A stretch of DNA of 64,000 bases from Candidatus Kaiserbacteria bacterium RIFCSPHIGHO2_01_FULL_53_29 (GCA_001781125.1 MFKT01000001.1:3630-67629); one strand, 5' to 3'. Counted from the first letter of the stretch, positions 7,537-53,717 are shown. Notes: generated by a model from the letters alone, not told the origin. A program made the numbers and translations.

Positions 7537-8007
7537 ATGACACATACATCATCGATCCGGACGCTCACGATCGTCATCGTGATGTTTCTCTTCGCGTGGA
7601 TCGCGCTTGCGCACGTGGTGCAAGCACAAGAGTCCTCGGGCGATCTGCGTGCGACCATCCGCGCCGAATTGTTGAGCGATCCGCGCACGAGCAGCCTCTC
7701 GCAAGCACAGATCGAGGAAATGGTGGATGTCCTCTTACAGGAGGCACAAAAGCAGGGCGTGACCTCGCACGATATACAGTGGCGACCCGCACCGTCGGCA
7801 GATCCTGCCGAGGACTCCGGGTCAGCCGTTGCCTGCGGGAATGTGCCCTCAATTCTCTGTGCAATGAATACAGCGTTCGGCTTTGATGGATCGGATCTCA
7901 AGATTCCCATAGGTCTTGCCGCCAGCTCCATTCTCCTCATCGTCCTTATCGGGCTGATGATAGAAGAGCATCGCCGCCGCGCGGGAGCTATCGCGCGATC
8001 TCTTTGA
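7537..8007 (+). CDS. Hypothetical bitopic membrane/secreted protein
   Basis: 156 aa with an N-terminal signal-like helix and a C-terminal hydrophobic helix (IGLAASSILLIVLIGLMI). Confidence 0.45.
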   Translation: MTHTSSIRTLTIVIVMFLFAWIALAHVVQAQESSGDLRATIRAELLSDPRTSSLSQAQIEEMVDVLLQEAQKQGVTSHDIQWRPAPSADPAEDSGSAVACGNVPSILCAMNTAFGFDGSDLKIPIGLAASSILLIVLIGLMIEEHRRRAGAIARSL

Positions 8008-25587: not shown

Positions 25588-28407
25588 ATGCCTCCCATGA
25601 TGGAGAAGCCGCGTGTTGCGGCACCAGAGAAATTTAAATCTCCCGAAGAGGAGTTGGCCTATTTGCGCGAGCGGGTGCGGGAAAAAGAGTCGGAAATGGA
25701 AGCGCCGGATAATCGCTTCGAGAGTGACCGCATCGCGAAACGCGAAGTTGCCGCATATGCCGATACGCCGGCGGCGACCATCCTTCACGAGACGGTGGTC
25801 ATGGCTGAGCACGACATTCTCAAAAATGTCCTCAAGCTCGAACCGGAAACTCACGACAAGCAGGTAGACGAGATTTTGAAACTGGTCGCCGAGCGCGGGA
25901 TCAGGAACGCACTTTCGGTTGCCGCACGGATGAAGAATCCGCATTTGGAAGATGATATTCACCGCGCGCTCGTGCGCTACCTTGCGGAAGGCCTGCCCGA
26001 TAAAGGGATGGGGGTTCCGGAGAAAGTGCGCCGCGCGCTCAATATGGTGCTGTTCGAGATTCAGCCGCAGGCGTATGGTGAGGATACTACGCGCAGTCGT
26101 GATCAATACAAACTTGAGCAGATGCTCTCGTCAACTGAACAGCTTTATGCGGGGCTCACCTCACTTATCGATCCGCACGAGGGATTTTCACTTGAGATCG
26201 CTGTACAAGAGGGCACCGAAGAAGCGTTTTTATACCTCGCGGTGCCGCGGGTGAAAAAAGTCCTCGCGGAGCGCCTTATTTCTTCCGTTTTCCCCAACGC
26301 GCACATGTCGGAATCACGCGGCGACTACAACATCTTCAATTACGAAGGCGAGCATGCCGCAGCCTACGCTACTCTTGCTGAACACCCCTCGCTGCCCCTG
26401 AAGACGCCCGAGCTTTTTGAGCACGACCCTATGAATATTCTTCTTGCTGCGTTCGCGAAGATCGCGAAGCACGGCGAGGGAGCTGCGCTTCAGATCACGG
26501 TCTCGACCGAAGGTGACCGTTACAACCTTCACTACAAGAAAATCCTGCGTCAGCTCGAGAAAGGCAAGATCTTTCACAAAGCCATCAGGATCCCCGAGAC
26601 GACGATTATGGAAGCGGTTTACGTGATGACAAAGAAAGTATTCATGCCCAAGGAGTATGAAATGGAGGTTGAAAAACAGTTTCGCCGCACGAGCGATCAA
26701 GTGGCAACCGAGGAGATTACCAAAAAACTCAAAAGTCGTATCGCGCCGGTTTCGATCCGTATCGTTGCATCGGCGCCCACCAAGTCTCGTGCGCAGGAAA
26801 TTTTGGATAATCTGAAGGCGCCATTCAACCAATACGACGATCCGAGAGGTAACCAACTGAAATTTAAAGATATAGGCAGCTGGGGACTGACTGATTTTTT
26901 GCGCAGTTTTACCTATCGCGAATTTGACCACTCGATCTCGATGCCGCTCTCGCTCGCTGAAGTGACCTCGATGTTTCACTTTACGGCAGAGCGCCTCACG
27001 ACCTCGCGAGAGCTCAAGCGCAGCTTTGCCAAGCAAGCCCCCGCGCCGATCGAGACTCCCGCAGATGGCATTACGATCGGTATCAACAAATATGGCGCGG
27101 ACGAAACCCCCGTGCACTTCGGGGCAAGCGATAGGCTGCGACACGCGTACGTGATAGGGCAGACGGGTACGGGAAAGACCGGATTCCTCAAGAATATGAT
27201 CATCCAAGATATCAAGAACGGCGAAGGCATTGCATTTATCGATCCACACGGCAACGACATTGAGGATATACTCGCGTGTATCCCGAGAGAGCGTATGCAG
27301 GACGTAATTTATTTCGATCCCGCCTACACCGCGCGACCGATGGGCCTCAACATGCTCGAGTACGACCGCTCGAAGCCCGAAATGAAGACGTTCGTCGTCG
27401 ATGAAGTGTATGGCATCTTCCGCAAACTCTACGCCGATGTGCCCGAGGCTTTCGGTCCGATGTTCGAGCAGTATTACCGCAACGCCGTGCAGCTTGTCGT
27501 TGAAGATCCCGATACCGGCAGTACATTTGTCGAGATCCCGCGCGTATTCGCCGATACCGCATTCCGCAATCTCAAGCTCTCGCACTGCAATAACCCCATC
27601 ATCGTACAATTCTGGCGCAAGATCGCGGAGCAAGCACAAGGTGATCCCAGTCTCGAAAATGTCGCTCCCTACATCACGAGCAAATTCGACGTCTTCCTCA
27701 CCAACGACATTATGCGGCCGATCGTAGCCCAAGAAAAATCGGCATTCAATTTCCGCGAGATCATGGACAAGAAGAAGATATTTCTCGCGAATCTCTCCAA
27801 GGGGCGTTTGGGCGATCGTAATACCTCGCTTCTCGGCCTCATTCTCGTTTCCAAATTCCTGCAGGCTGCTTTCTCGCGCGTCGATACCCGTGGCGATGTG
27901 TTACCCGTCTTCTATCTCTACATCGACGAGTTCCAAAACTTCGCGACACCGAGTATCGCAACCATTCTCTCCGAAGCCCGCAAATACAAACTTTCGCTCA
28001 CCATCGCGCACCAATTCATTGCCCAGCTTGAAGAAGACATTCGCGATTCGGTCATCGGCAACGTGGGCACCAAGGCAGCCTTTCGCATCGGCACGCAGGA
28101 TGCTGAATTTTTGGAGAAGCAGTTCACGCCGATCTTTATGCAGCAGGACCTTGAGAACCTTCCTAACAGAACCGCGGTCCTCTCGCTTCTGGTCAATGGC
28201 GTCCCCGCGCGGCCCTTCACCATACAAACGCAAGACCTTCCTACGATGGACTACAGCAAGACGGATGCTATGAAGGAACTTTCATACGCGACCTACGGGA
28301 AGGATAGGGAAGAGGTGGAAGCCGACATCCGCCGCAAGTTCGAAGCCGCCTACGGCAAAAAGCCCGCTCCACTGGTGCCCGAATCCCCTACACCGTTGTA
28401 TCAATAG
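25588..28407 (+). CDS. Large P-loop NTPase of the TraD/VirD4/HerA-FtsK-like (DUF87-like) superfamily with a long N-terminal non-ATPase region
   Basis: Walker A IGQTGTGKTGFLKNMI and a Walker B-like VFYLYIDEFQNF. This architecture is typical of T4SS coupling-protein or archaeal-type HerA-like ATPases. The 939-aa ORF has a large antisense shadow ORF (26314..27732) inside it. Confidence 0.6.
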   Translation: MPPMMEKPRVAAPEKFKSPEEELAYLRERVREKESEMEAPDNRFESDRIAKREVAAYADTPAATILHETVVMAEHDILKNVLKLEPETHDKQVDEILKLVAERGIRNALSVAARMKNPHLEDDIHRALVRYLAEGLPDKGMGVPEKVRRALNMVLFEIQPQAYGEDTTRSRDQYKLEQMLSSTEQLYAGLTSLIDPHEGFSLEIAVQEGTEEAFLYLAVPRVKKVLAERLISSVFPNAHMSESRGDYNIFNYEGEHAAAYATLAEHPSLPLKTPELFEHDPMNILLAAFAKIAKHGEGAALQITVSTEGDRYNLHYKKILRQLEKGKIFHKAIRIPETTIMEAVYVMTKKVFMPKEYEMEVEKQFRRTSDQVATEEITKKLKSRIAPVSIRIVASAPTKSRAQEILDNLKAPFNQYDDPRGNQLKFKDIGSWGLTDFLRSFTYREFDHSISMPLSLAEVTSMFHFTAERLTTSRELKRSFAKQAPAPIETPADGITIGINKYGADETPVHFGASDRLRHAYVIGQTGTGKTGFLKNMIIQDIKNGEGIAFIDPHGNDIEDILACIPRERMQDVIYFDPAYTARPMGLNMLEYDRSKPEMKTFVVDEVYGIFRKLYADVPEAFGPMFEQYYRNAVQLVVEDPDTGSTFVEIPRVFADTAFRNLKLSHCNNPIIVQFWRKIAEQAQGDPSLENVAPYITSKFDVFLTNDIMRPIVAQEKSAFNFREIMDKKKIFLANLSKGRLGDRNTSLLGLILVSKFLQAAFSRVDTRGDVLPVFYLYIDEFQNFATPSIATILSEARKYKLSLTIAHQFIAQLEEDIRDSVIGNVGTKAAFRIGTQDAEFLEKQFTPIFMQQDLENLPNRTAVLSLLVNGVPARPFTIQTQDLPTMDYSKTDAMKELSYATYGKDREEVEADIRRKFEAAYGKKPAPLVPESPTPLYQ

Positions 28408-35114: not shown

Positions 35115-36713
35115 TTAGAGCGCAAGCACTTGAGTCTGGGCACTTCCATACGGTCTCACAGATCTCAAGTAGTTGAGTGCGTACAGGAGAACGTTCTTGA
35201 ATATCTCAAGAATTTGTATTAGCGCCCCGTTTTGCTTCGTTGCATTGACCGGGACAGGGTTTCCGGCAAGGTCGGGAGATGTGAACGTCTGCTGCGAGAT
35301 CGGCGGCGCCATGATGATGGGACGGGCGGGTGGTGCGGAGGCGAGGGTATTGGGATTTTGTGCTGTCACGTCGGAGTTTCCCGCAGTATCTACGGAGCTC
35401 GAAACATCAGTCCCCGTTACGGCTTGCAGCTCCACAGAATTCAAGAGGTCGTTGTTGAGGGAGAGGGGCGTTGTTGTCGTCATGATCGGCTGATTGACCG
35501 GATCCATCTGATTTTCGAACTGCCGGATGAGGTCGAAGGCGGAGAGGCTGCTCGTCGCTGTCCTTGACCCATCGTTACTATTCAGATTGAGCGCGAGCGG
35601 TTCTCCGGTGGTCGTTGAGGTCGCGGTAAGAAGATTGAGGAGCGAATTCTGCGAAGAATTTGCCGGTGTCAGTAAATTTGCAATTGACGATTGAGTCCCC
35701 AATGCCTCCGAGGAAATGCTGGATTGCGCAGGAAGTATCGGTTGCGCAGAGGATTGAGGCTGTTGCGGAAGCTGCTGCTGCATCTGTGGTTGCTGCATTT
35801 GAGGTGGGGGCAGTGGCGGTGGAGGAGGTGGGGGTGGCTGCATACCAAGTGCTTGGCGAATTTGATCGGCAAGTCCGGAGGAGGGCGATCCGCGCTCTGG
35901 AGCAGGGAGAAAACCATTTCCGCTCCCGCCACTGTTGCATGCGCCGCATTGTCCATGCCTGCCCTCCGCATTTTGGAAATGACCCGGGTCCCATCCATTG
36001 ACGCCGGTAATGGTACGGAGTCCAGATCTGCCAGCGTTGGCGTGCATCCATGGCAACAGTGCCTTGTTTGCGTTGAAGTCGGCCGCGAGTCCGTAATTAT
36101 GGTACGACTGGCAAGGGCCTGCTTTTGAGGCCCTGCTGGCGACGAGACCGTTTTGTTTCTCGGGGCCTCTATATGCGTCCGTGATTTTTGGCGGGCCGCC
36201 AGGAACTGCTTCCATGAATTTTTTCAACTTTTCCGCGAATTGTGTGTTGAGGCACGAGATATTCGCGTCTTTAGTCGCATGCTGTCGCAGCCAGAGTTTT
36301 GCTTCTCCGGCAGCTTGGCCGGTATTCGGATCTTTCGTATTCCACGGCATGCCGACTTGCGGATCCGGTATGCCAGCTGACTCCATTTTCGGTATATCGG
36401 CCGCTGTCGCGGGTCGTGTACCGACTGGAGTGCTGCCAGAGGTTTCTGGGGGTTCCGGTGACAGTAGTGTTGGGATAGTGGATAGGCTATCTTTCCAGCC
36501 ACTACAGAGCTGGTGTTTTGTTCCGGGGGGCGGTGCGACGTTGTACATCACGATGGGTCCCCACCCTTTGTTGAGGAGGTCGTTGTACTCTGCGCTCTCC
36601 CACACGACATCTTTACACTCCGCTCTGACATACAGCGGAACCGTAACCACTAGGACTGCGACGATAAGAAAAAACACGAACACTCCAGTGTCGTTCAGGT
36701 CAGTTCGAAACAT
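35115..36713 (-). CDS. Membrane-anchored peptidase M15-family (VanY/endolysin-like zinc D-Ala-D-Ala / L-Ala-D-Glu peptidase) domain protein with a Pro/Gln-rich linker and a conserved C-terminal domain; paralog 1
   Basis: N-terminal TM (VFVFFLIVAVLVVTVPLY). Motifs ITDAYRGPEKQ...SYHNYGLAADFN...DPGHFQ fit the M15 zinc-ligand pattern (S.[FY]R..Q / S.H..G.A.D / H). The PPPPPPPPLPPPQMQQPQMQQQ linker is followed by a C-terminal roughly 170 aa about 70% identical to the neighbour. The start is taken at the ATG; the listed ORF starts at an upstream GTG. Confidence 0.6.
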   Translation of the reverse strand: MFRTDLNDTGVFVFFLIVAVLVVTVPLYVRAECKDVVWESAEYNDLLNKGWGPIVMYNVAPPPGTKHQLCSGWKDSLSTIPTLLSPEPPETSGSTPVGTRPATAADIPKMESAGIPDPQVGMPWNTKDPNTGQAAGEAKLWLRQHATKDANISCLNTQFAEKLKKFMEAVPGGPPKITDAYRGPEKQNGLVASRASKAGPCQSYHNYGLAADFNANKALLPWMHANAGRSGLRTITGVNGWDPGHFQNAEGRHGQCGACNSGGSGNGFLPAPERGSPSSGLADQIRQALGMQPPPPPPPPLPPPQMQQPQMQQQLPQQPQSSAQPILPAQSSISSEALGTQSSIANLLTPANSSQNSLLNLLTATSTTTGEPLALNLNSNDGSRTATSSLSAFDLIRQFENQMDPVNQPIMTTTTPLSLNNDLLNSVELQAVTGTDVSSSVDTAGNSDVTAQNPNTLASAPPARPIIMAPPISQQTFTSPDLAGNPVPVNATKQNGALIQILEIFKNVLLYALNYLRSVRPYGSAQTQVLAL

Positions 36714-36771
36714 ACAGAGAAGTATACAGAGAAAATCACTGCTCACTTCCGGCGACTGTACAAGTACTCAC

Positions 36772-38421
36772 TTATATTTGCACGGCTGCACGGCTTCCGA
36801 ACGGTTTCAAATACTCAAGCGCGAGGAGCAGCGTATCCCTGAAGATCGTAAGAATTCTTATGAGCACCGCATCGTTTTGCTTCGCTGCTGGTATATTGGC
36901 AGACACAGGAGCATTGCCAAGGTCGGGAGATGTGAACGTCTGCTGCTGCGAGATCGATGGCGCCATGATAATGGGACGTGTTGCTGGCGTCGCCGTCGCA
37001 TAGACGATGCGACCACTGATATTTTCGGGCGCTGTTGCATCCGAAGAAGGCCCAATGTCAATTGGAATATAAACATCAGTCCCCGTTGCCGCATTTAGTG
37101 CACGGGGGAAAGCAGCTTGCAGCTCCACAGAATTCAAGAGGTCGTTGTTGAGGGAGAGAGGGGTTGTTGTTGTCATGATCGGCTGATTGACCGGATCCAT
37201 CTGATTTTCGAGTTGCCGGATGAGGTAGAAGGCGGAGAGGCTACCCGTCGCTGCCCCCGACCCATCGTTACTATTCAGATTGAGCGCGATCGGTTCTCCG
37301 GTGGTCGTTGAGGTCGCGGTCAGAAGATCGAGAATTGAATTCTGCCCAGCTGAAATTGGTGAATTTGGTATCGTCAGGAGACTTGCGGGTGATGATTGAA
37401 TCGGTAGATTCGAAGAGACCGTCGGCTGTGTAGAAAGAGTTGGTTGAGCCTGAAGCGTTGGTTGAGTGGAGAGCGCCGGTTGTATCGACGACTGAGGCTG
37501 TTGGGGAAACTGCTGCTGTGGCGGCATCTGCGGTTGCTGCATTTGAGGTGGTGGCGATGGCTGCTGAGGCGCGGGCGGTTGCGGCGGGAGTTGAGGTTGT
37601 TGTCCCTGTCCGTTAGTTAGGCACTGCGATTGCTGGACCGTCCCGGGTGGCGCGATGACGGGAGGATTGAGACTCGTGAAGCACTCCGCGGTGTTCATGG
37701 CTGATGAACCCTGCGCCCAATCCCGTATCCCGCTCGTTATTCCGGAAGTAGGTGTGGTTTGAGATGTTTGAGGAGGTGGGGTGTTGGCTGGGGTACCCGC
37801 AACCCCACTGCATGACGGGCTGCGCATGTTCGTTGGTTGCATGTGCGGCCTGTCGCCCATGCCGAGCGGAAAGCCGACGCCAAATTGCGGACTCGCTCTC
37901 GCGAACGCATGCAGTTGCGCATAGTTGCCGCTTGCCGGATTCACGTCCATAGCCATTCCTATTTGGTGGTTGGAATTCGTCGCTCCTCTGGCCCTCGCAT
38001 TCTCCGTGCGGTCGCATTGGATGCTTGCAGGCGAGCGCGGCCCGCATCGGAAGGCCGACACGACAAAGATAGGCCCGTATTTCTGTGCGTATGCTTTGAG
38101 AAAATTAGCCGCGCACGTTGCAAACGCGTTGTTTAGCTTGTCGATACGACCTCCTGAGGTCGGTGGAGCTTTTGAATTCCGCAGGTCTCTCGCTATGCTC
38201 TGTAAATATGCTTTCGCTGCTCCGGCGTCGTTGGTGATTCCCGCTTTGGTATCACCGGGACAAACGGGTCTTCCCGGTAGAGCACCTGCGCGGACTTCAC
38301 CTGGAGTAGCCGTATGACCCGCCGAGCCATCAGCACAAGGACCTGCCGATTCCGTGAAAAGCGGGCCGAGGATCACTAGTGCAAAAGGGACGGCCAATAG
38401 GGCAGATACCTTGAGAGACAT
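36772..38421 (-). CDS. Secreted peptidase M15-family domain protein with a Pro/Gln-rich linker and a conserved C-terminal domain; paralog 2
   Basis: Signal peptide MSLKVSALLAVPFALVILGPLFTESA. Motifs VVSAFRCGPRSPASIQ...SNHQIGMAMDVN...DRPHMQ fit the M15 pattern. The linker is PQPPAPQQPSPPPQMQQPQMPPQQQ. The C-terminal domain (TTTGEPIALNLNSNDGS...NQPIMTTTTPLSLNNDLLNSVELQA) is shared with 35115..36713. A shared upstream motif CTGTATACTTC sits just before both start codons. Confidence 0.6.
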   Translation of the reverse strand: MSLKVSALLAVPFALVILGPLFTESAGPCADGSAGHTATPGEVRAGALPGRPVCPGDTKAGITNDAGAAKAYLQSIARDLRNSKAPPTSGGRIDKLNNAFATCAANFLKAYAQKYGPIFVVSAFRCGPRSPASIQCDRTENARARGATNSNHQIGMAMDVNPASGNYAQLHAFARASPQFGVGFPLGMGDRPHMQPTNMRSPSCSGVAGTPANTPPPQTSQTTPTSGITSGIRDWAQGSSAMNTAECFTSLNPPVIAPPGTVQQSQCLTNGQGQQPQLPPQPPAPQQPSPPPQMQQPQMPPQQQFPQQPQSSIQPALSTQPTLQAQPTLSTQPTVSSNLPIQSSPASLLTIPNSPISAGQNSILDLLTATSTTTGEPIALNLNSNDGSGAATGSLSAFYLIRQLENQMDPVNQPIMTTTTPLSLNNDLLNSVELQAAFPRALNAATGTDVYIPIDIGPSSDATAPENISGRIVYATATPATRPIIMAPSISQQQTFTSPDLGNAPVSANIPAAKQNDAVLIRILTIFRDTLLLALEYLKPFGSRAAVQI

Positions 38422-38459
38422 TCTCGAAGTATACAGAAGAAAAACTCCAGCCCCTTTTC

Positions 38460-39050
38460 CTATGTGGACTGTTTTGTCGTATTGCCCAGGCACACTCCGT
38501 CGGCCCAGAGACCTCGTTTAGCCGCTTGCGCTTCCTGTTCTGCTGCTTTGAATTCGGCTTGGTATTTGTACGGAAGGCGATAGGTGTATTCGTGGCCGAA
38601 GCCATTCTCGATCATGAATTTCTCGTAGTTTGTTCCATTGAGCAGAAAGACATAGGCGAGCGTACGGCCGTACTTATCATATGTATCTTGCGAAGCGTCA
38701 TATTCGAGTCGCACATACTGGCTGTCGAGAAGTTTGTGCCCCTCATCGGAAGCTTCGCGCGCAAAACATTGTACGGGTTTGCGCGGGTCGACAATCTCCG
38801 GCGTGTCGAGTCCGATAATGCGGATGCGGGTCAGTGCGGCGTCCATCACGACGTCGATCGTATCGCCGTCGATGACCTTGGCAACGGGGTAAACATCGGG
38901 CGTTGTGGTTGCAGGCTGTATCGTTGCAGCCGCAAGCGCGCTTTGCGCCGCTTTATGATTCGCAATCGGCGCAAGGGCGGTGCGGCCTGCAAGAATGGCG
39001 AGTGTAGCAAAAATCACCGCGGCTCCGTACAAAAGTGAACGCACATTCAT
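38460..39050 (-). CDS. Secreted thermonuclease (staphylococcal nuclease/SNase-like)
   Basis: Signal peptide, then VIDGDTIDV...RIRIIGLDTPE...YGRTLAYVFLLNGTNYEKFMIENGFGHEYTY...AKRGLWAD matches the SNase fold signature. Confidence 0.8.
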   Translation of the reverse strand: MNVRSLLYGAAVIFATLAILAGRTALAPIANHKAAQSALAAATIQPATTTPDVYPVAKVIDGDTIDVVMDAALTRIRIIGLDTPEIVDPRKPVQCFAREASDEGHKLLDSQYVRLEYDASQDTYDKYGRTLAYVFLLNGTNYEKFMIENGFGHEYTYRLPYKYQAEFKAAEQEAQAAKRGLWADGVCLGNTTKQST

Positions 39051-39064
39051 TTCGAGATTATACG

Positions 39065-39112
39065 CATAAAAAATCGTGGGCGCGGCGGAGAGGTTCTACT
39101 CCCGCCGCGCCC
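39065..39112 (-). terminator. Strong rho-independent terminator (minus strand) after gene 39127..39693
   Basis: 11-12-bp GC stem GGGCGCGGCGG...CCCGCCGCGCCC followed on the minus strand by a TTTTTTATG run. TATAAT lies immediately upstream of the nuclease start. Confidence 0.7.
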
Positions 39113-39126
39113 GTTCGCGCCACCAG

Positions 39127-39693
39127 TCAGGCCGCAATGCCAAGTGCGGACAGAAGCGCGTGCCCCCTCTCATCGTCCGAAGGGGGAGGTTTCCAGGATC
39201 CCGGCTCGCTCTTGACCGTATGGCCGAGTGCCATCAGGAGGTCGATCGTGAGTGCCGCCGCGTCTGCAGTCATGCCGGGAGCAAAGGCGATCTGCTCCAG
39301 CGTGAGCGGGTTCTTGCCTTTCTCGCCGGGGATCACCGTTCTTTGTGTGACCTTTTTCTTCCCGACGATGTCTTCGACTGTCATCACGCCGATGAACGAT
39401 AGGGCGTTTCGCGCACATTCGCCGTGCTTCTTCAACTCCTCGTCGCTCCAGCGCGTGTTCAAGAGGATCACTCTTGTGAATGTGAACGCGAAGAACCCCC
39501 GAATCGGAGCATTTTTCAGGAGCTCGGGCCTGTTCGCTTCTTTCGTAGGCTTCAGCGTGTGGAGCTGGTTCGAGACGCATCTCGCGGCACTGACCAGCTC
39601 TAACCTATCGCGACGTTCTATCATTTTCCACCTCACATTTCGGACATCGGTGTCCGCCAATGAAACACTGCCCGAATGAGAAGCTCGTGTCAA
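39127..39693 (-). CDS. Hypothetical protein (possible start at the internal ATG near 39622)
   Basis: A 188-aa ORF ending at a strong terminator. No family was recognised. Confidence 0.45.
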   Translation of the reverse strand: MTRASHSGSVSLADTDVRNVRWKMIERRDRLELVSAARCVSNQLHTLKPTKEANRPELLKNAPIRGFFAFTFTRVILLNTRWSDEELKKHGECARNALSFIGVMTVEDIVGKKKVTQRTVIPGEKGKNPLTLEQIAFAPGMTADAAALTIDLLMALGHTVKSEPGSWKPPPSDDERGHALLSALGIAA

Positions 39694-50080: not shown

Positions 50081-50233
50081 GGGACATGAATGAGCCTGTT
50101 CGAGTTGTCATAACCGGAGGGACCGGCGTATACGTTGCCATGAATGGAAAGGTATTCCTCTGGAACAATGTCAGGAAGAATAGAGATAAGCAAGTGTTTG
50201 AAAACTTGCAAAAGACGGTAGAGTAGTACTGTT

Positions 50234-50304
50234 GCGCCCATAGCTCAATGGTAGAGCGACCGTCTTATACACGGTCTACCTAGGTTCGATTCCTAGTGGG
50301 CGTA
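50234..50304 (+). tRNA. tRNA, apparent anticodon UAU (Ile, AUA-reading) by manual cloverleaf folding; CCA not encoded
   Basis: GCGCCCA-TA-GCTC-AATGGTA-GAGC-G-ACCGT-CTTATAC-ACGGT-CTAC-CTAGG-TTCGATT-CCTAG-TGGGCGT-A. There is a G1·U72 wobble. A TTGAAA..TAGAGT promoter-like sequence lies upstream. Confidence 0.7.
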
Positions 50305-50358
50305 TAAGTGAACTTTGCTGTGAATTGCGAGGTTGCACCCTCGGCTCGCCGTGCGACA

Positions 50359-52701
50359 ATGAGTGGCATGCGATACGTTGTTCGGATTCCTGCGCTAGCT
50401 GCATGTCTAGCCGCTTTTCTCTTTCTCTTCCTCCCTCATGCAAGCTTTGCGGCGACTGTCACGGTAACGATGGGGGCAAATTCTTTCTCGCCCAAAAATA
50501 TCACGGTCAATTCCGGCGACACGGTCACGTGGGTCAACAGCAGCAGCATGGCGCACACTGCAACGGCCGACAACGGCAGCTTCGATAGCGGAACGGTGGC
50601 TGCGGGACAGAGCTACGGAGCGATATTCAATGCACCCGGCATCTACGCGTATTATTGCAAACTCCACGGTAGCCCCGGTGGGATAAGTATGGCAGGTACT
50701 ATTACGGTTGTCGCGGGCGCAACCCCGACGAGCGGAGCTGTCGGGGCCCCACCCAGTGCGTCGGGGCTGCAGGCGCAAGCACAGGCACTCCTCAATCAAA
50801 TTGCGGCACTCAAGCAACAGCTGGGATATGGTGGCACTTCGGGAACCGCGATCACGACGACTTCAGGGAGCGGCATCTCCACGTATTCGGCCGCGTGTCC
50901 GCTCATCGGGAGGAATCTCTCACAGGGCGCGAGCGGTGACGATGTGTCGCGTCTCCAGCAATTTCTCGCGCAGGACACTGCGGTCTATCCGGAGGCGATC
51001 GTGTCGGGATATTATGGAAGTTTGACTCAGACGGCAGTGCAGCGATGGCAGGCGAAGTACAATATCGTCTCGTCAGGTACGCCAAGCTCGACCGGCTACG
51101 GTGTCGTCGGTCCGCGCACGGCGGCAGCGATCGCTATCATTTGTGCCGGCGGCAGCATCAATGGCATCTCCGCAACGGCAGTGAGCCCGCCTCCTGCATC
51201 TGTCAGCGGTGTTGTCAGCGTGACACCGATCGTGGGGGACGCACCCCTTACGGTCAATGTTACCGCGACACTCAATACGGCCGGCTCATGCGCCGGCGGC
51301 CTTTACACACTCGATTTTGGCGATGGCGCTCCTGTGCAGCAAATTACTGTTCCGGCTGGTAATTGTGGACAATTGAGTCAGACCTATCCGCATACGTTCC
51401 GATACGGTGGCAGTTACTCCATCACTCTTTCGGCAGGAGTGCACCGTCAATCCGCGACAGTCACCGTCACCGGTCCTGCAGCGCCTCCGCCGCGGAAAAC
51501 AACGCCCGGTCTGCCGAAAGAATCTTTCAAGGTCTCTCCTACCTCGGGTACAACACCGCTTACCGTTACGTTCTCGGGCGTCGTCAACAGCAACGATGCG
51601 GGATTCTGTAACGGCGGTTGTGCCTCTGTTCTCGACTTTGGCGATGGCACGTCCGGGACGGTCGATCTTCCCGCCTCTGTCGGGGGATGGCTTGAGTACA
51701 GCATCACGCATACCTATACGACGGCGGGGGGATTCAAGACGACTCTGTATCAGGGCGGTGCGGGCGTCTCACAGCCGAAGGTCGGGTCGGCAACGATCGT
51801 TGTCTCGGTCGGCACCCCGTCGTTTTCTGCGATACCCGCATCCGGTCCCTCGCCACTTGCTGTCGGCTTTTCTGCGACTGGTCTTTCTCCAAGCGGCCTC
51901 TACGGGATCAATTATGCCGATGGAACGGCCATTGCGCGCTTCACGGGAAGCGCCGCTCCCGGCACGCAAAGCCCGTGGACGCATACCTACTCGACTCCTG
52001 GCACATTCTCGGCCCAACTTCTCTCGTATCAGGCGTCCACGAGTGGCTGCCAAGGCAGTTGTGCCTCGACCCCGACGGTCATAGGCACGGTACCGGTCAA
52101 TGTTTCCGGCACCCCCGCCGGCTCTGCCGCGCTCTCGGTATATCCGACCTCCGGCGTGGCGCCAGTCAACGTTTCATTCACGGCGAATATCAGCCCGACA
52201 AGCGGCACGCACAGCATTAATTTTGGCGATGGCTCTCCGGCGCAAACCTTCGGCTGCGCGACCGGCTCAACGTGTGCCACGCACTGGCAGATCAATCACA
52301 CGTACGCGACGGGCGGCACATTTGTGGCGCGGCTCAGCACGGGATCGGGCTCTCAAGTCGGGGCGGCCACGGTTACCGTTTCCGGCGGTTCGACGAATCC
52401 GACGAATCCCACAAATCCTCCAAATTCTTATCCGTACAATCCGCCCCTGCTCTCCGGTGGCAGTGACTCGCTTTCATTCAATGTGCAGTTTGACCTGCCA
52501 TCCTCGTGCACGGGCTACGATCTCTCTTGGGGCGATGGCACGTCTCATGTCGTGCAGAGTGACGGAGGCTCCTCGTGTGCGCAGAGTATTGCTACTCCAT
52601 CTCTTTCTCACACGTATAGTTCCGAGGGCTCATACACCATCGTTTTGAAACGTGGACCGACGCTTTCCCAGATCAACGACATCGAAATAACCACTCAATA
52701 A
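50359..52701 (+). CDS. Secreted multidomain protein: cupredoxin (blue-copper) domain, a peptidoglycan-binding (PG_binding_1-like) domain and about 5 PKD-like (FGDG) domains
   Basis: Signal peptide. Cupredoxin ligands HTATADNG...YYCKLHGSPGGISMAG. The PG-binding motif is GASGDDVSRLQQFLAQ...YYGSLTQTAVQRWQAKYNI. Repeated ...LDFGDGxxx.../INYADGT/SINFGDGS/DLSWGDGTS units are present. The listed ORF begins at an upstream GTG. Confidence 0.7.
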   Translation: MSGMRYVVRIPALAACLAAFLFLFLPHASFAATVTVTMGANSFSPKNITVNSGDTVTWVNSSSMAHTATADNGSFDSGTVAAGQSYGAIFNAPGIYAYYCKLHGSPGGISMAGTITVVAGATPTSGAVGAPPSASGLQAQAQALLNQIAALKQQLGYGGTSGTAITTTSGSGISTYSAACPLIGRNLSQGASGDDVSRLQQFLAQDTAVYPEAIVSGYYGSLTQTAVQRWQAKYNIVSSGTPSSTGYGVVGPRTAAAIAIICAGGSINGISATAVSPPPASVSGVVSVTPIVGDAPLTVNVTATLNTAGSCAGGLYTLDFGDGAPVQQITVPAGNCGQLSQTYPHTFRYGGSYSITLSAGVHRQSATVTVTGPAAPPPRKTTPGLPKESFKVSPTSGTTPLTVTFSGVVNSNDAGFCNGGCASVLDFGDGTSGTVDLPASVGGWLEYSITHTYTTAGGFKTTLYQGGAGVSQPKVGSATIVVSVGTPSFSAIPASGPSPLAVGFSATGLSPSGLYGINYADGTAIARFTGSAAPGTQSPWTHTYSTPGTFSAQLLSYQASTSGCQGSCASTPTVIGTVPVNVSGTPAGSAALSVYPTSGVAPVNVSFTANISPTSGTHSINFGDGSPAQTFGCATGSTCATHWQINHTYATGGTFVARLSTGSGSQVGAATVTVSGGSTNPTNPTNPPNSYPYNPPLLSGGSDSLSFNVQFDLPSSCTGYDLSWGDGTSHVVQSDGGSSCAQSIATPSLSHTYSSEGSYTIVLKRGPTLSQINDIEITTQ

Positions 52702-52723: not shown

Positions 52724-52869
52724 ATGATATGCCCGGTAGGACAATTTCGAATCGCCTTGATATGAATATTTACCAGCGTATGACGAGAAAAATTGATTCG
52801 AGAATTTTGCAGCCATTCGTCGTTGATACCGCGGCAAGAATTATTCGAAATTGTACTGACCGGGTATGA
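52724..52869 (+). repeat. Copy D of the roughly 140-bp cassette, outside the ribosomal cluster, upstream of a secreted PG-binding protein gene
   Basis: gaTATG|CCCGGTAGG...CTGACCGGG|TATGa. The 35-aa uORF MNIYQRMTRKIDSRILQPFVVDTAARIIRNCTDRV has an ATGA overlap with the downstream ATG. Paired substitutions (C to T in the 5' arm, G to A in the 3' arm) keep the closing helix intact. A 1-nt insertion fuses uORF1 and uORF2 in frame. Confidence 0.8.
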
Positions 52870-53717
52870 GAAAAATACGGTTCGCAGGAATTGCAACGCT
52901 GCTCGCAGGTATTTGTGCGACGCCATTCTTTGCGGCAGCTTTGAGCGGCGACGATATCAAGGCGCAGATTGCGGCAATCCTTGCTCAGATCGCTGCGACC
53001 CAGGGGAAAGCGCAGTCCGTACCATCTGTCCAGTCCGTCCAATCTCTTCCCCCCGTGCAGCCGCTTTCCCCGAACCAATCGCAGGGAGGGGCGTGTCCGG
53101 TACTTTCCCGCTCGCTCTCGCTTGGTGCACAGGGCCTGGATGTGCTCTCGCTCCAGCAATTCCTCATCGCGCAGAATTCCGCGAGTACCGGATCGGCGAC
53201 CGGCTACTTCAACGCGCAGACCGAAGTTGCCGTACAAAAATGGCAATCATCGCACGGGCTCGTCTCCTCCGGTGACGCGGGATCGACCGGATGGGGAGTG
53301 GTGGGTCCGCGCACAAGAATGCTCATTTCTCTCAATTGTAACCTTCCAACGTCATCTCCGGCGTCGGCTGTCACCGGAAGCCGGTGCCCGAGTGCGCTCC
53401 CGCCTGTGATGCTCTGCTCGACTACTTGGAAGCCGGTCTTGGACGTATACGGTTGTACCACTTCCTACCAATGCTCGGTCCCGCTTTCAGGCGCCACGTC
53501 ACAGAAATCGGTGCAATCAACGACGACAACACCGGCAACAGGCTCGGTCATATCGATCGGTATCCTCTCAAGCAGCTATTGTGTAACTCCGTGGGGCAAC
53601 ATTACGCGGGTTAACGGACAAAGTATCAGCTATATCCCGTATTTCACGAACGGACTAAATAACGGGGGACGCAATCCAAGTGTTTTATGCGACAAAGGCG
53701 TTTGGACGGTGCAGTGA
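52866..53717 (+). CDS. Secreted protein with a PG_binding_1-like domain and a Cys-containing C-terminal domain
   Basis: Signal peptide. LSLGAQGLDVLSLQQFLIAQ...GYFNAQTEVAVQKWQSSHGL is a peptidoglycan-binding-type motif. Confidence 0.65.
   Translation: MRKIRFAGIATLLAGICATPFFAAALSGDDIKAQIAAILAQIAATQGKAQSVPSVQSVQSLPPVQPLSPNQSQGGACPVLSRSLSLGAQGLDVLSLQQFLIAQNSASTGSATGYFNAQTEVAVQKWQSSHGLVSSGDAGSTGWGVVGPRTRMLISLNCNLPTSSPASAVTGSRCPSALPPVMLCSTTWKPVLDVYGCTTSYQCSVPLSGATSQKSVQSTTTTPATGSVISIGILSSSYCVTPWGNITRVNGQSISYIPYFTNGLNNGGRNPSVLCDKGVWTVQ

What the first reader, a model, noticed from the sequence alone, without database searches (positions are those of the whole stretch)
35115..39112. A minus-strand cluster of two paralogous M15 zinc-peptidase-domain proteins plus a secreted thermonuclease: a candidate cell-wall- and DNA-degrading toolkit
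Genes 38421-36772 and 36713-35115 share architecture. Each has a signal or TM segment, an M15 (VanY/endolysin-like) catalytic domain with S-x-[FY]-R / S-x-H-x-x-G-x-A-x-D / H motifs, and a poly-Pro/Gln linker (PPPPPPPPLPPPQMQQPQMQQQ). Each ends in a roughly 170-aa C-terminal domain that is highly similar between the two (TTTGEP[LI]ALNLNSNDGS...NQPIMTTTTPLSLNNDLLNSVELQA). Both have the same CTGTATACTTC box just upstream of the ATG. Immediately upstream on the same strand is an SNase-type secreted nuclease with TATAAT at its start, preceded by a strong terminator that insulates the trio. In a reduced-genome, possibly episymbiotic organism, peptidoglycan-hydrolase paralogs plus a nuclease would fit attack on, or scavenging from, a host cell envelope. 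The shared C-terminal domain may be a targeting or binding module.
Basis: partly seen in the sequence, partly recalled or inferred. Interest (0 to 1): 0.7.

Follow-up and report, generated by a model that had tools for sequence, protein, structure and literature searches.

The report
Paired cell-wall peptidases with shared tails
Two neighbouring genes in a Kaiserbacteria-like (CPR) chromosome encode exported zinc peptidases of a known cell-wall-cutting type, each carrying an undescribed C-terminal tail that gene conversion keeps alike between the two copies; the nuclease gene next door is a real but separately promoted neighbour.

Summary

- The tail is not a globular domain. AlphaFold2 gives disorder plus short conserved motifs and a C-terminal amphipathic helix with leucines at heptad spacing. 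It is not a low-complexity artefact either: 378 cluster representatives carry it, always C-terminal, and nearly always behind an M15 head.
- Heads group by ortholog type across genomes, while tails group by genome, in 4 of 4 genomes with two copies. This indicates repeated gene conversion of the tails.
- The CTGTATACTTC box contains a -10-like element 6-7 nt before the ATG. This is the common layout in this window, so each gene probably has its own leaderless promoter.

The locus [SNase]-M15(1-2 copies)-infC is syntenic across Kaiserbacteria within a housekeeping neighbourhood. Nothing tested supports host attack specifically. My best reading is surface-tethered peptidoglycan peptidases, possibly for the cell's own wall.

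The parts
38460..39050 (-). SNase-type (thermonuclease-like) nuclease, 196 aa, with an N-terminal hydrophobic signal or anchor
   Evidence: Pfam SNase 2.6e-22. NCBIfam NucI scores 115 bits, below the 250 equivalog cut-off. The alignment to S. aureus nuclease keeps D21, R35, D40, T41, E43 and R87. A hydrophobic segment spans roughly residues 3-27, from 19-residue windows starting at 1-12.
39057..39062 (-). TATAAT -10-like hexamer, 6 nt before the nuclease ATG (probable leaderless promoter)
   Evidence: Sequence read. The same spacing is seen before many genes of the window.
39068..39112 (-). GC-rich hairpin (39112-39078) plus T-run (39073-39068), read as the intrinsic terminator of the upstream ORF that ends at 39127
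   Evidence: -33.9 kcal/mol, z -3.8, and none of 200 shuffles folds as well.
36772..38421 (-). Gene B, 549 aa: signal peptide, B-type M15 head, Pro/Gln linker with a two-Cys insert, conserved tail
37792..38334 (-). Gene B M15/LAS catalytic head (about residues 30-210), with R125, H152, D159, D190 and H193
   Evidence: pLDDT 80-97. Foldseek to Ply500, BaLdcB and VanY at E about 1e-3, probability 1.00. Pfam M15_3 above cut-off. These residues are invariant or nearly so.
36775..37281 (-). Gene B conserved tail (last 169 aa). Motifs: SAFYLIRQLEN..P, QQTFTSPDL, and the C-terminal helix AVLIRILTIFRDTLLLALEYLKPFG (36879-36796).
   Evidence: Tail profile search, consensus. In the AlphaFold2 model only helix 515-542 is moderately confident (pLDDT about 70-76).
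38428..38435 (-). TGTATACT -10-like element, whose hexamer TATACT ends 6 nt before the gene B ATG
35115..36713 (-). Gene A, 532 aa: signal peptide (VRA|E), extra small N-terminal subdomain, A-type M15 head, poly-Pro/Gln linker, conserved tail
35934..36620 (-). Gene A M15/LAS head (about residues 32-260), with R182, H205, D212, D242 and H245
35118..35588 (-). Gene A conserved tail (last 157 aa), with the C-terminal helix at 35228-35160
   Evidence: helix 496-518; pLDDT 87 and 75 for its two 10-residue blocks.
36721..36728 (-). TGTATACT -10-like element, whose hexamer ends 7 nt before the gene A ATG
35422..35652 (.). Core of the gene-conversion tract in gene A, 93% nt identity to 37115-37345 in gene B. 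Elevated identity (60-97%) spans about 35230-35850.
37115..37345 (.). Matching conversion-tract copy in gene B

Best explanation
Genes B and A encode Sec-exported zinc peptidases of the M15/LAS superfamily that cut peptidoglycan stem peptides. Their catalytic set is Arg, His-x6-Asp and Asp-x-x-His, the Ply500/LysB4 arrangement.

Each head is followed by a long, disordered stalk rich in Pro, Gln, Ser and Thr, and then by a conserved tail. The tail has three short motifs and ends in an amphipathic helix with leucines at heptad spacing.

I infer the following topology. The signal peptide is cleaved, and the C-terminal helix keeps the enzyme at the cell surface, either on the outer face of the membrane or through self- or partner-association. 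The stalk lets the head reach into the wall. This matches E. coli PBP5: cleaved signal peptide, catalytic domain, stalk, C-terminal amphipathic anchor.

The two genes are old paralogs with different heads. Recurrent gene conversion keeps their tails alike within a genome, so different heads are addressed to the same place or partner.

The most likely physiological role is trimming or remodelling of the organism's own peptidoglycan. The adjacent SNase is a separate, leaderless transcription unit. It encodes an extracellular or membrane-anchored nuclease, plausibly for nucleotide scavenging, and I can link it to the peptidases only by conserved gene order.

Shown: fold, motifs, architecture, family distribution, concerted evolution, synteny. 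Inferred: signal-peptide cleavage, tethering by the helix, substrate bond, self versus foreign wall.
For: M15 membership:
- Pfam M15_3 above cut-off for B.
- Family profile against PDB sequences: LdcB 8e-12, Ply500 1.8e-11, VanYB 7e-11.
- The catalytic Arg, His, Asp, Asp and His are invariant or nearly so. They correspond to LysB4 R50, H80, D87, D129 and H132, where the D129A and R50Q mutations abolish activity (PMC6354061).

Export:
- 99 of 111 full-length members have an N-terminal hydrophobic segment.
- 60 of them have a strict A-x-A site after it.
- Cysteines are conserved in the head.

Tail:
- 378 representatives at E<=1e-3 and 253 at E<=1e-10, always C-terminal.
- 102 of 113 full-length hits carry S.H..G.A.D. 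Short hits are fragments.
- No Pfam or NCBIfam model covers it.
- AlphaFold2 with 21 or 111 sequences gives disorder plus a confident terminal helix.
- Invariant or nearly invariant leucines sit 7 residues apart.
- The helix has a high hydrophobic moment.

Concerted evolution:
- Heads are 41-76% identical between orthologs and 20-27% within a genome.
- Tails are 58-78% identical within a genome and 25-47% between genomes, in 4 of 4 genomes.
- DNA similarity is confined to the 3' parts.
- Head and tail identity are uncorrelated family-wide, r = 0.06 over 5050 pairs.

Context:
- Housekeeping synteny.
- Each gene has its own -10-like element 6-7 nt before the ATG and no Shine-Dalgarno sequence.
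- PBP5 analogy: PMC2909392.
Against: - No experiment or expression data exist.
- Signal-peptide cleavage is judged only by simple rules. Gene B has Pro at +1 of the likeliest cleavage site.
- The helix is followed by a conserved PFGG and, in 75% of family members, an acidic last residue. Together with two further conserved motifs upstream, this suggests a specific protein interaction rather than plain membrane binding.
- Own-wall and foreign-wall targets cannot be separated by sequence. The closest structural matches are phage endolysins, which are lytic enzymes.
- SNase is adjacent in 6 of 9 genomes (7 if the window itself is counted), which could still mean co-function.
Confidence: 0.55

Rival explanations
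1. Host-attack toolkit. The two peptidases breach a host bacterium's wall and the nuclease degrades its DNA. The tail targets the host envelope.
For: - All three proteins are exported.
- The heads are closest in fold to lytic L-Ala-D-Glu endolysins Ply500 and LysB4 and use the Asp-x-x-His variant.
- The tails evolve fast and are genome-specific, as expected for interaction surfaces.
- SNase is adjacent in 6 of 9 related genomes, and in the window too.
Against: - No secretion or contact-delivery genes, no immunity gene and no mobile-element context lie nearby.
- The locus sits within conserved housekeeping synteny.
- Each gene has its own promoter-like element.
- SNase is absent from L005 and L009.
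- M15 enzymes such as LdcB, CwlK and VanY are commonly housekeeping. LdcB is the top sequence-profile hit.
- No host is known for Kaiserbacteria.
Confidence: 0.2
2. DNA-uptake and nutrient-scavenging module. The peptidases open the wall locally for a pilus or competence machine, and the anchored SNase processes incoming DNA, in the manner of NucA or EndA in competent Gram-positives.
For: - SNase and M15 are co-oriented with a 38-nt gap, and the adjacency is conserved.
- The SNase has an N-terminal hydrophobic anchor.
- CPR bacteria generally depend on scavenged nucleotides (general knowledge, not tested here).
Against: - No com or pil genes are next to the locus in the window. T2SSE and T2SSF genes lie near one truncated homolog only (L012).
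- purD is present in the window, so purine synthesis is at least partly encoded.
- The genes have separate promoters.
Confidence: 0.12
3. The tail is a regulatory or secretion element rather than a tether. It could be an autoinhibitory pseudo-substrate, with its free C-terminal Y-x-E carboxylate docking into the carboxylate-binding Arg site of the M15 head. Or it could be a C-terminal signal for an unknown export or sorting step.
For: - The last residue is Glu in 64% and Asp in 11% of members, with Tyr often at -3.
- M15 enzymes use the conserved Arg at the scissile site.
- The tail is disordered and long enough to fold back onto the head.
Against: - The two proteins in this window lack the acidic terminus; they end in QI and LAL.
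- AlphaFold2 gives no confident tail-head contact.
- The helix and the QQTFTS motif are better conserved than the terminus itself.
- The tail does not fit sortase or exosortase signals. The helix contains charged residues, so it is not a transmembrane helix, and there is no basic end.
Confidence: 0.08
4. Prophage remnant: degenerate endolysin genes.
For: Weak PHROG endolysin and tape-measure hits to the heads.
Against: - No phage genes are nearby.
- The position next to infC is conserved across genomes that share only 36-60% protein identity.
- The proteins carry signal peptides and belong to a family-specific architecture with 378 cluster representatives.
Confidence: 0.02

Closest known systems
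Ply500 / LysB4 endolysin catalytic domains (M15C-type L-alanoyl-D-glutamate endopeptidases; PDB 2vo9, 6akv)
   Different: Only 17-20% identity. These are chromosomal, signal-peptide-bearing proteins, not phage lysins. The C-terminal partner is a disordered stalk plus the novel tail, where the endolysins carry an SH3_5-type or other cell-wall-binding domain.
LdcB / DacB LD-carboxypeptidases and VanY DD-carboxypeptidases (M15B; PDB 4ox3, 4jid, 4mph, 5zhf)
   Same: Best sequence-profile matches, 8e-12 to 7e-11. They are exported or anchored housekeeping enzymes that trim stem peptides. The Zn ligands and Arg are conserved.
   Different: LdcB and VanY use Glu-x-x-His, whereas this family has a nearly invariant Asp. 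LdcB is anchored at the N-terminus and has no long stalk or C-terminal tail.
E. coli PBP5 (DacA) topology
   Same: Analogy of layout only: cleaved signal peptide, catalytic domain, stalk, and a C-terminal amphipathic helix that tethers the enzyme to the outer face of the membrane and is needed for localisation (PMC2909392).
   Different: The fold is unrelated (serine penicillin-binding protein versus zinc LAS peptidase). The PBP5 stalk is a folded beta domain. Here the stalk is disordered and the tail carries extra conserved motifs.
Staphylococcal nuclease (PF00565; thermonuclease Nuc / NucI)
   Same: Pfam 2.6e-22. Matches S. aureus nuclease at 1.3e-14 with D21, R35, D40, T41, E43 and R87 kept. 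Has an N-terminal export segment.
   Different: Scores below the NucI equivalog cut-off, 115 against 250 bits, so it is a distant family member.

Membership tests
Peptidase family M15 / LAS zinc metallopeptidases | Zn ligands His-x6-Asp ... His within an SxHxxGxAxD context | tested here: met
   B has SNHQIGMAMD plus H193. A has SYHNYGLAAD plus H245. 102 of 113 full-length family members match.
Peptidase family M15 / LAS zinc metallopeptidases | Catalytic acid three residues before the last His (Glu in VanY, LdcB and VanX; Asp in Ply500, LysB4 and ChiX), plus the catalytic Arg | tested here: met
   D190-x-x-H193 and R125 in B. D242-x-x-H245 and R182 in A. All are nearly invariant. Roles are taken from LysB4 mutants (PMC6354061).
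Peptidase family M15 / LAS zinc metallopeptidases | LAS fold | tested here: met
Peptidase family M15 / LAS zinc metallopeptidases | Score above a curated Pfam threshold | tested here: inconclusive
   B scores 26.4 on M15_3 against a 23.2 cut-off, so it is met. A scores 15.9 on M15_4 against a 25 cut-off, so it is not met. A is placed by profile and fold instead.
Peptidase family M15 / LAS zinc metallopeptidases | Zn-dependent hydrolysis of a peptidoglycan stem-peptide bond, and which bond | not testable with these tools
   Needs enzyme assays on muropeptides.
Staphylococcal nuclease (SNase, PF00565) | Domain score above threshold, and Ca-binding and catalytic residues D21, D40, T41, R35, E43, R87 | tested here: met
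   79.7 bits against a 21 cut-off. All six residues align.
NCBIfam thermonuclease NucI equivalog (NF047694) | Score at or above 250 bits | tested here: not met
   115.2 bits.
Sortase / exosortase / rhombosortase C-terminal sorting signals | Short signature motif, then an uncharged transmembrane helix, then a basic cluster at the C-terminus | tested here: not met
   The helix contains Arg, Asp, Glu and Lys, and the terminus is acidic in 75% of members. No NCBIfam sorting-domain hit.
Contact-dependent or polymorphic antibacterial effectors | Adjacent immunity gene and a delivery system or trafficking domain | tested here: not met
   The neighbours are thrC, a small ORF, infC and housekeeping genes. 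The same holds in related loci.
PBP5-like C-terminal amphipathic membrane anchor (functional analogy, not homology) | Cleaved signal peptide plus a terminal amphipathic helix that binds membrane | tested here: inconclusive
   A-x-A sites occur in 60 of 99 members. The terminal helix is amphipathic with a high moment. Membrane binding itself was not testable.

The most novel reading that the evidence does not exclude
The tail is a previously undescribed, lineage-specific 'address module' for wall hydrolases in Kaiserbacteria-like CPR bacteria. Several anciently diverged M15 heads in one genome are kept on interchangeable tails by gene conversion. Through the leucine-heptad helix and the QQTFTS and FDLI motifs, they then assemble with each other or dock onto one fast-evolving surface partner, forming a multi-specificity peptidoglycan-processing complex at the cell surface. 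That complex might sit at the contact site with a host.
Probability: 0.25. Interest if true: 0.6.

Novelty: new variant of a known kind. Interest (0 to 1): 0.4.

Why it matters
Very little is known about how CPR/Patescibacteria build, remodel and decorate their envelope.

This analysis defines a sizeable family confined so far to Kaiserbacteria/Paceibacterota-type genomes: 378 clusters at 50% identity. It combines a well-understood catalytic head with an uncharacterised tail. That tail shows a clean signature of within-genome concerted evolution.

The signature gives a concrete handle for finding the tail's partner, through co-evolution analysis or pull-downs. It also offers a way to test how exported enzymes are retained at the surface of these cells.

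The analysis tempers the host-attack reading, because the three-gene arrangement is largely inherited synteny. As a side result, it suggests that leaderless transcription from a -10 box 6-7 nt before the ATG is the norm in this genome.

Tried and rejected
Searches and tools that gave little or failed:
- Word-indexed homolog search with the tail profile returned only 4 proteins, probably because low-complexity words filled the candidate list. The same search with the B head alone returned only 2. The exhaustive representative search was the informative one.
- The search for related loci with the 21-sequence alignment failed for lack of a conserved stretch. With a closer set it found only 3 genomes.
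- A Pfam scan of the 111-member alignment exceeded the size limit. I used motif counts instead.
- The AFDB library was unavailable.
- The consensus promoter and terminator scanner found neither the hairpin nor the -10 boxes because of its spacing rules. I checked them by folding and by direct reading.
- Literature searches found nothing on M15 peptidases in Patescibacteria.

Ideas tested and rejected:
- AlphaFold2 with 111 sequences still did not fold the tail into a domain, so 'globular binding domain' is rejected.
- Tail-only proteins, or the tail on other heads: all short hits are fragments.
- A third tail-bearing gene in the window: none found.
- Prophage origin: no phage context.
- Sortase-type sorting signal: wrong helix composition and wrong terminal charge.
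- 'Low-complexity artefact': rejected by 253 hits at E<=1e-10 with position-specific motifs.

Full report
**Observation**

On the minus strand, ORFs 39050-38460 (196 aa), 38421-36772 (gene B, 549 aa) and 36713-35115 (gene A, 532 aa) are present as described. Public gene calls on identical metagenomic contigs give the same three products.

Pfam results:
- The first ORF scores 2.6e-22 on SNase.
- Gene B scores 26.4 bits on Peptidase_M15_3, above the 23.2 cut-off.
- Gene A gives only a sub-threshold M15_4 hit of 15.9 bits.

The two long proteins are 42% identical overall. Identity is low in the N-terminal halves and near-complete over the quoted tail segment. At the DNA level, a 231-nt tract (35422-35652 against 37115-37345) is 93% identical.

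The box CTGTATACTTC lies 4-5 nt before both ATGs. TATAAT lies 6 nt before the nuclease ATG. A strong hairpin with a T-run precedes it, folding at -33.9 kcal/mol, z -3.8. The hairpin starts 15 nt after the stop of the upstream ORF, so it is that gene's terminator.

**Organism and context**

The closest homologs come from Candidatus Kaiserbacteria and Paceibacterota metagenome-assembled genomes.

The window is chromosomal and carries housekeeping genes:
- secY, adk, map, purD and ndk
- a VirD4/TraG-like ATPase
- infC, thrC, smpB and ftsH
- tmRNA

I found no phage, plasmid or secretion-system cluster next to the trio.

**The heads are M15/LAS peptidases**

A profile of 111 family members, including A and B, matches PDB sequences only through the head:
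- LdcB/YodJ at 8e-12
- Ply500 at 1.8e-11
- VanYB at 7e-11
- LysB4 at 2.5e-10

AlphaFold2 models give confident heads with pLDDT 80-97.
- Foldseek places B next to Ply500, BaLdcB and VanY, and A next to BaLdcB and LysECD7.

The catalytic residues are invariant or nearly so:

| Role | Gene B | Gene A |
|---|---|---|
| Arg | R125 | R182 |
| His | H152 | H205 |
| Asp | D159 | D212 |
| Asp | D190 | D242 |
| His | H193 | H245 |

They map onto LysB4 R50, H80, D87, D129 and H132. In LysB4, the D129A and R50Q mutations abolish activity (PMC6354061).

The acid before the last His is Asp, as in Ply500, LysB4 and ChiX. In VanY and LdcB it is Glu. Which peptide bond is cut cannot be decided from sequence.

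**Export**

- Both proteins begin with a hydrophobic segment.
- Across the family, 99 of 111 full-length members have one, and 60 of those have a strict A-x-A site just after it. Gene A has VRA|E.
- Conserved cysteines in the heads fit an extracytoplasmic location.

**The tail**

A profile of the last 130-170 residues was searched against 1.84 billion cluster representatives.
- It found 378 proteins at E<=1e-3 and 253 at E<=1e-10, always with the match at the C-terminus.
- 102 of 113 full-length hits carry the S.H..G.A.D motif.
- The short hits are truncated gene calls, many still showing remnants of the head.
- No other ORF in the window carries the tail.
- Pfam and NCBIfam have no model for it.

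The consensus has three conserved elements:
- TS.xDLIxxxxNP...TPIxLN
- QQTFTSxDL
- QnTfxxxiLexlKqxLLxaLxYLrPFGG

After these come 7-21 further residues. The last residue is Glu in 64% and Asp in 11% of members. The two proteins in this window lack this acidic ending.

AlphaFold2 predicts no compact domain with either 21 or 111 sequences.
- Most of the region has pLDDT below 50.
- A short helix covers the first motif.
- A long terminal helix is the best-predicted tail element: pLDDT about 70-76 in B (residues 515-542), and 87 and 75 for the two 10-residue blocks covering it in A (residues 496-518).

That helix is strongly amphipathic. It has invariant or nearly invariant leucines exactly seven residues apart: L524, L531 and L538 in B, and L502, L509 and L516 in A.

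So the 'C-terminal domain' is real and conserved. It looks like a disordered stalk with linear motifs and one helix, not a folded binding module.

**Concerted evolution**

I compared the two copies in four genomes that each have two: the window, L001/L002, L004 and L005.

| Region | Between orthologs or genomes | Within one genome |
|---|---|---|
| Heads, B-type orthologs | 44-76% | 20-27% |
| Heads, A-type orthologs | 41-63% | 20-27% |
| Tails (last 130 residues) | 25-47% | 58-78% |

- In the window, DNA identity between A and B is about 40% over the 5' two-thirds. It jumps to 60-97% from about 35850 downwards.
- In the other three genomes, detectable DNA similarity between the paralogs is likewise confined to the 3' parts, at 70-80% over 330-550 nt.
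- Over 5050 pairs of family representatives, head identity and tail identity are uncorrelated (r = 0.06). Many pairs have tails 60-84% identical on heads 22-31% identical, and many show the converse.

I read this as recurrent gene conversion that keeps tails matched within a genome while they diverge quickly between genomes.

**Promoters**

TGTATACT contains the hexamer TATACT, which ends 6 nt (B) or 7 nt (A) before the ATG. The nuclease has TATAAT at the same distance.
- At least seven other genes in the window have a TAnnnT hexamer ending 6-8 nt before the start codon, and Shine-Dalgarno-like sequences are rare.
- The same TGTATACT element precedes orthologs in L004, L005 and L007, and also precedes unrelated genes.

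The 'box' therefore contains a generic -10-like element, probably for leaderless mRNAs. Each gene of the trio appears to have its own.

**Synteny**

| Locus | Gene order |
|---|---|
| Window | SNase-B-A-infC |
| L001/L002/L003/L006 | SNase, a third head type, B, infC |
| L004 | SNase-B-A-infC |
| L005 | A-B-infC, no SNase |
| L007 | B-infC, upstream not resolved |
| L008 | SNase-B-infC |
| L009 | M15-infC, no SNase |
| L010 | SNase-M15-infC |
| L011 | SNase-M15, contig ends |

The surrounding genes are also conserved: ftsH, smpB, PdaC/DUF3298, AF_1845, rpmI, rplT, LDcluster4, ndk and the TraG-like gene. The SNase adjacency is therefore frequent, but it may simply be inherited gene order.

**Nuclease**

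The alignment to S. aureus nuclease retains D21, R35, D40, T41, E43 and R87, so I predict it is active. It scores below the NucI equivalog cut-off.

**Mechanism proposed**

The proteins are exported, and the signal peptide is probably cleaved. The M15 head hydrolyses peptidoglycan stem peptides.

The stalk and tail retain or address the enzyme. This could work by the amphipathic helix lying on the membrane's outer face, as in PBP5, where that helix is required for localisation (PMC2909392). It could also work by helix-mediated self-association or by docking to a partner.

Matching tails would send different heads to the same site. I consider own-wall maturation the most likely role, because the locus is a core, syntenic, housekeeping-embedded one and the top profile hit is LdcB. 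Attack on a host wall is not excluded.

**Novelty and verdict**

The catalytic domains and the nuclease are ordinary members of known families. The tail, its obligate coupling to M15 heads in one CPR lineage, and its within-genome homogenisation do not match any Pfam or NCBIfam model, and I found no description in the literature searched. This is a new variant of a known kind, of moderate interest.

Noticed in passing
window 50233-50305 (+): A tRNA-Ile gene with anticodon TAT (Rfam tRNA). This is an uncommon way to read AUA, instead of a lysidine-modified CAT tRNA.
   Followed up: no
window-wide, e.g. starts at 7537, 25588, 29257, 41829, 45812, 60899 and the trio: Many genes lack a Shine-Dalgarno sequence and have a TAnnnT hexamer ending 6-8 nt before the start codon. 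This suggests leaderless mRNAs are common in this genome.
   Followed up: partly
window 34204-32141 (-): A 687-aa exported or anchored protein that is Cys-rich at its N-terminus and otherwise low-complexity, with no Pfam hit. It lies directly downstream of infC, where related genomes have rpmI and rplT.
   Followed up: no
window 10031-10873 (+) and 52866-53717 (+): Two genes share an almost identical 35-nt sequence just upstream of the ATG (…aattattcgaaattgtact.gccgggtATG). They are probably paralogs with a conserved 5' region.
   Followed up: no
window 50308-52701 (+): A 797-aa protein combining cupredoxin/plastocyanin, PG_binding_1 and PKD domains. This is another wall-associated surface protein.
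   Followed up: no
window 25588-28407 (+); also L001 13524-16382 and L009 10247-11395: A 939-aa VirD4/TraG-like ATPase (TraG-D_C, DUF8128). It is conserved in the same neighbourhood in two of the related loci, with no other type IV secretion genes beside it.
   Followed up: no
gene A residues about 32-100 (window about 36414-36620): Within the 21-sequence alignment, gene A alone has an extra 70-residue N-terminal insert (ECKDVVWESAEYNDLLNKGW...). AlphaFold2 models part of it with pLDDT up to 87 as a small strand-and-helix unit.
   Followed up: no
linker of gene B (MNTAECFTSLNPPVIAPPGTVQQSQCLTNG; window about 37599-37688) and homologs P0002, P0004, P0019, P0020: A conserved two-Cys insert sits in the linker of some members. 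Others (P0005, P0008, P0009, P0010, P0020) have a different 6-7-Cys mini-module at the same place.
   Followed up: no
family-wide C-termini (P-series proteins): 75% of family members end in Glu or Asp, often as Y-x-E. The window's two proteins and their nearest tail relative, P0014, have lost this ending.
   Followed up: partly
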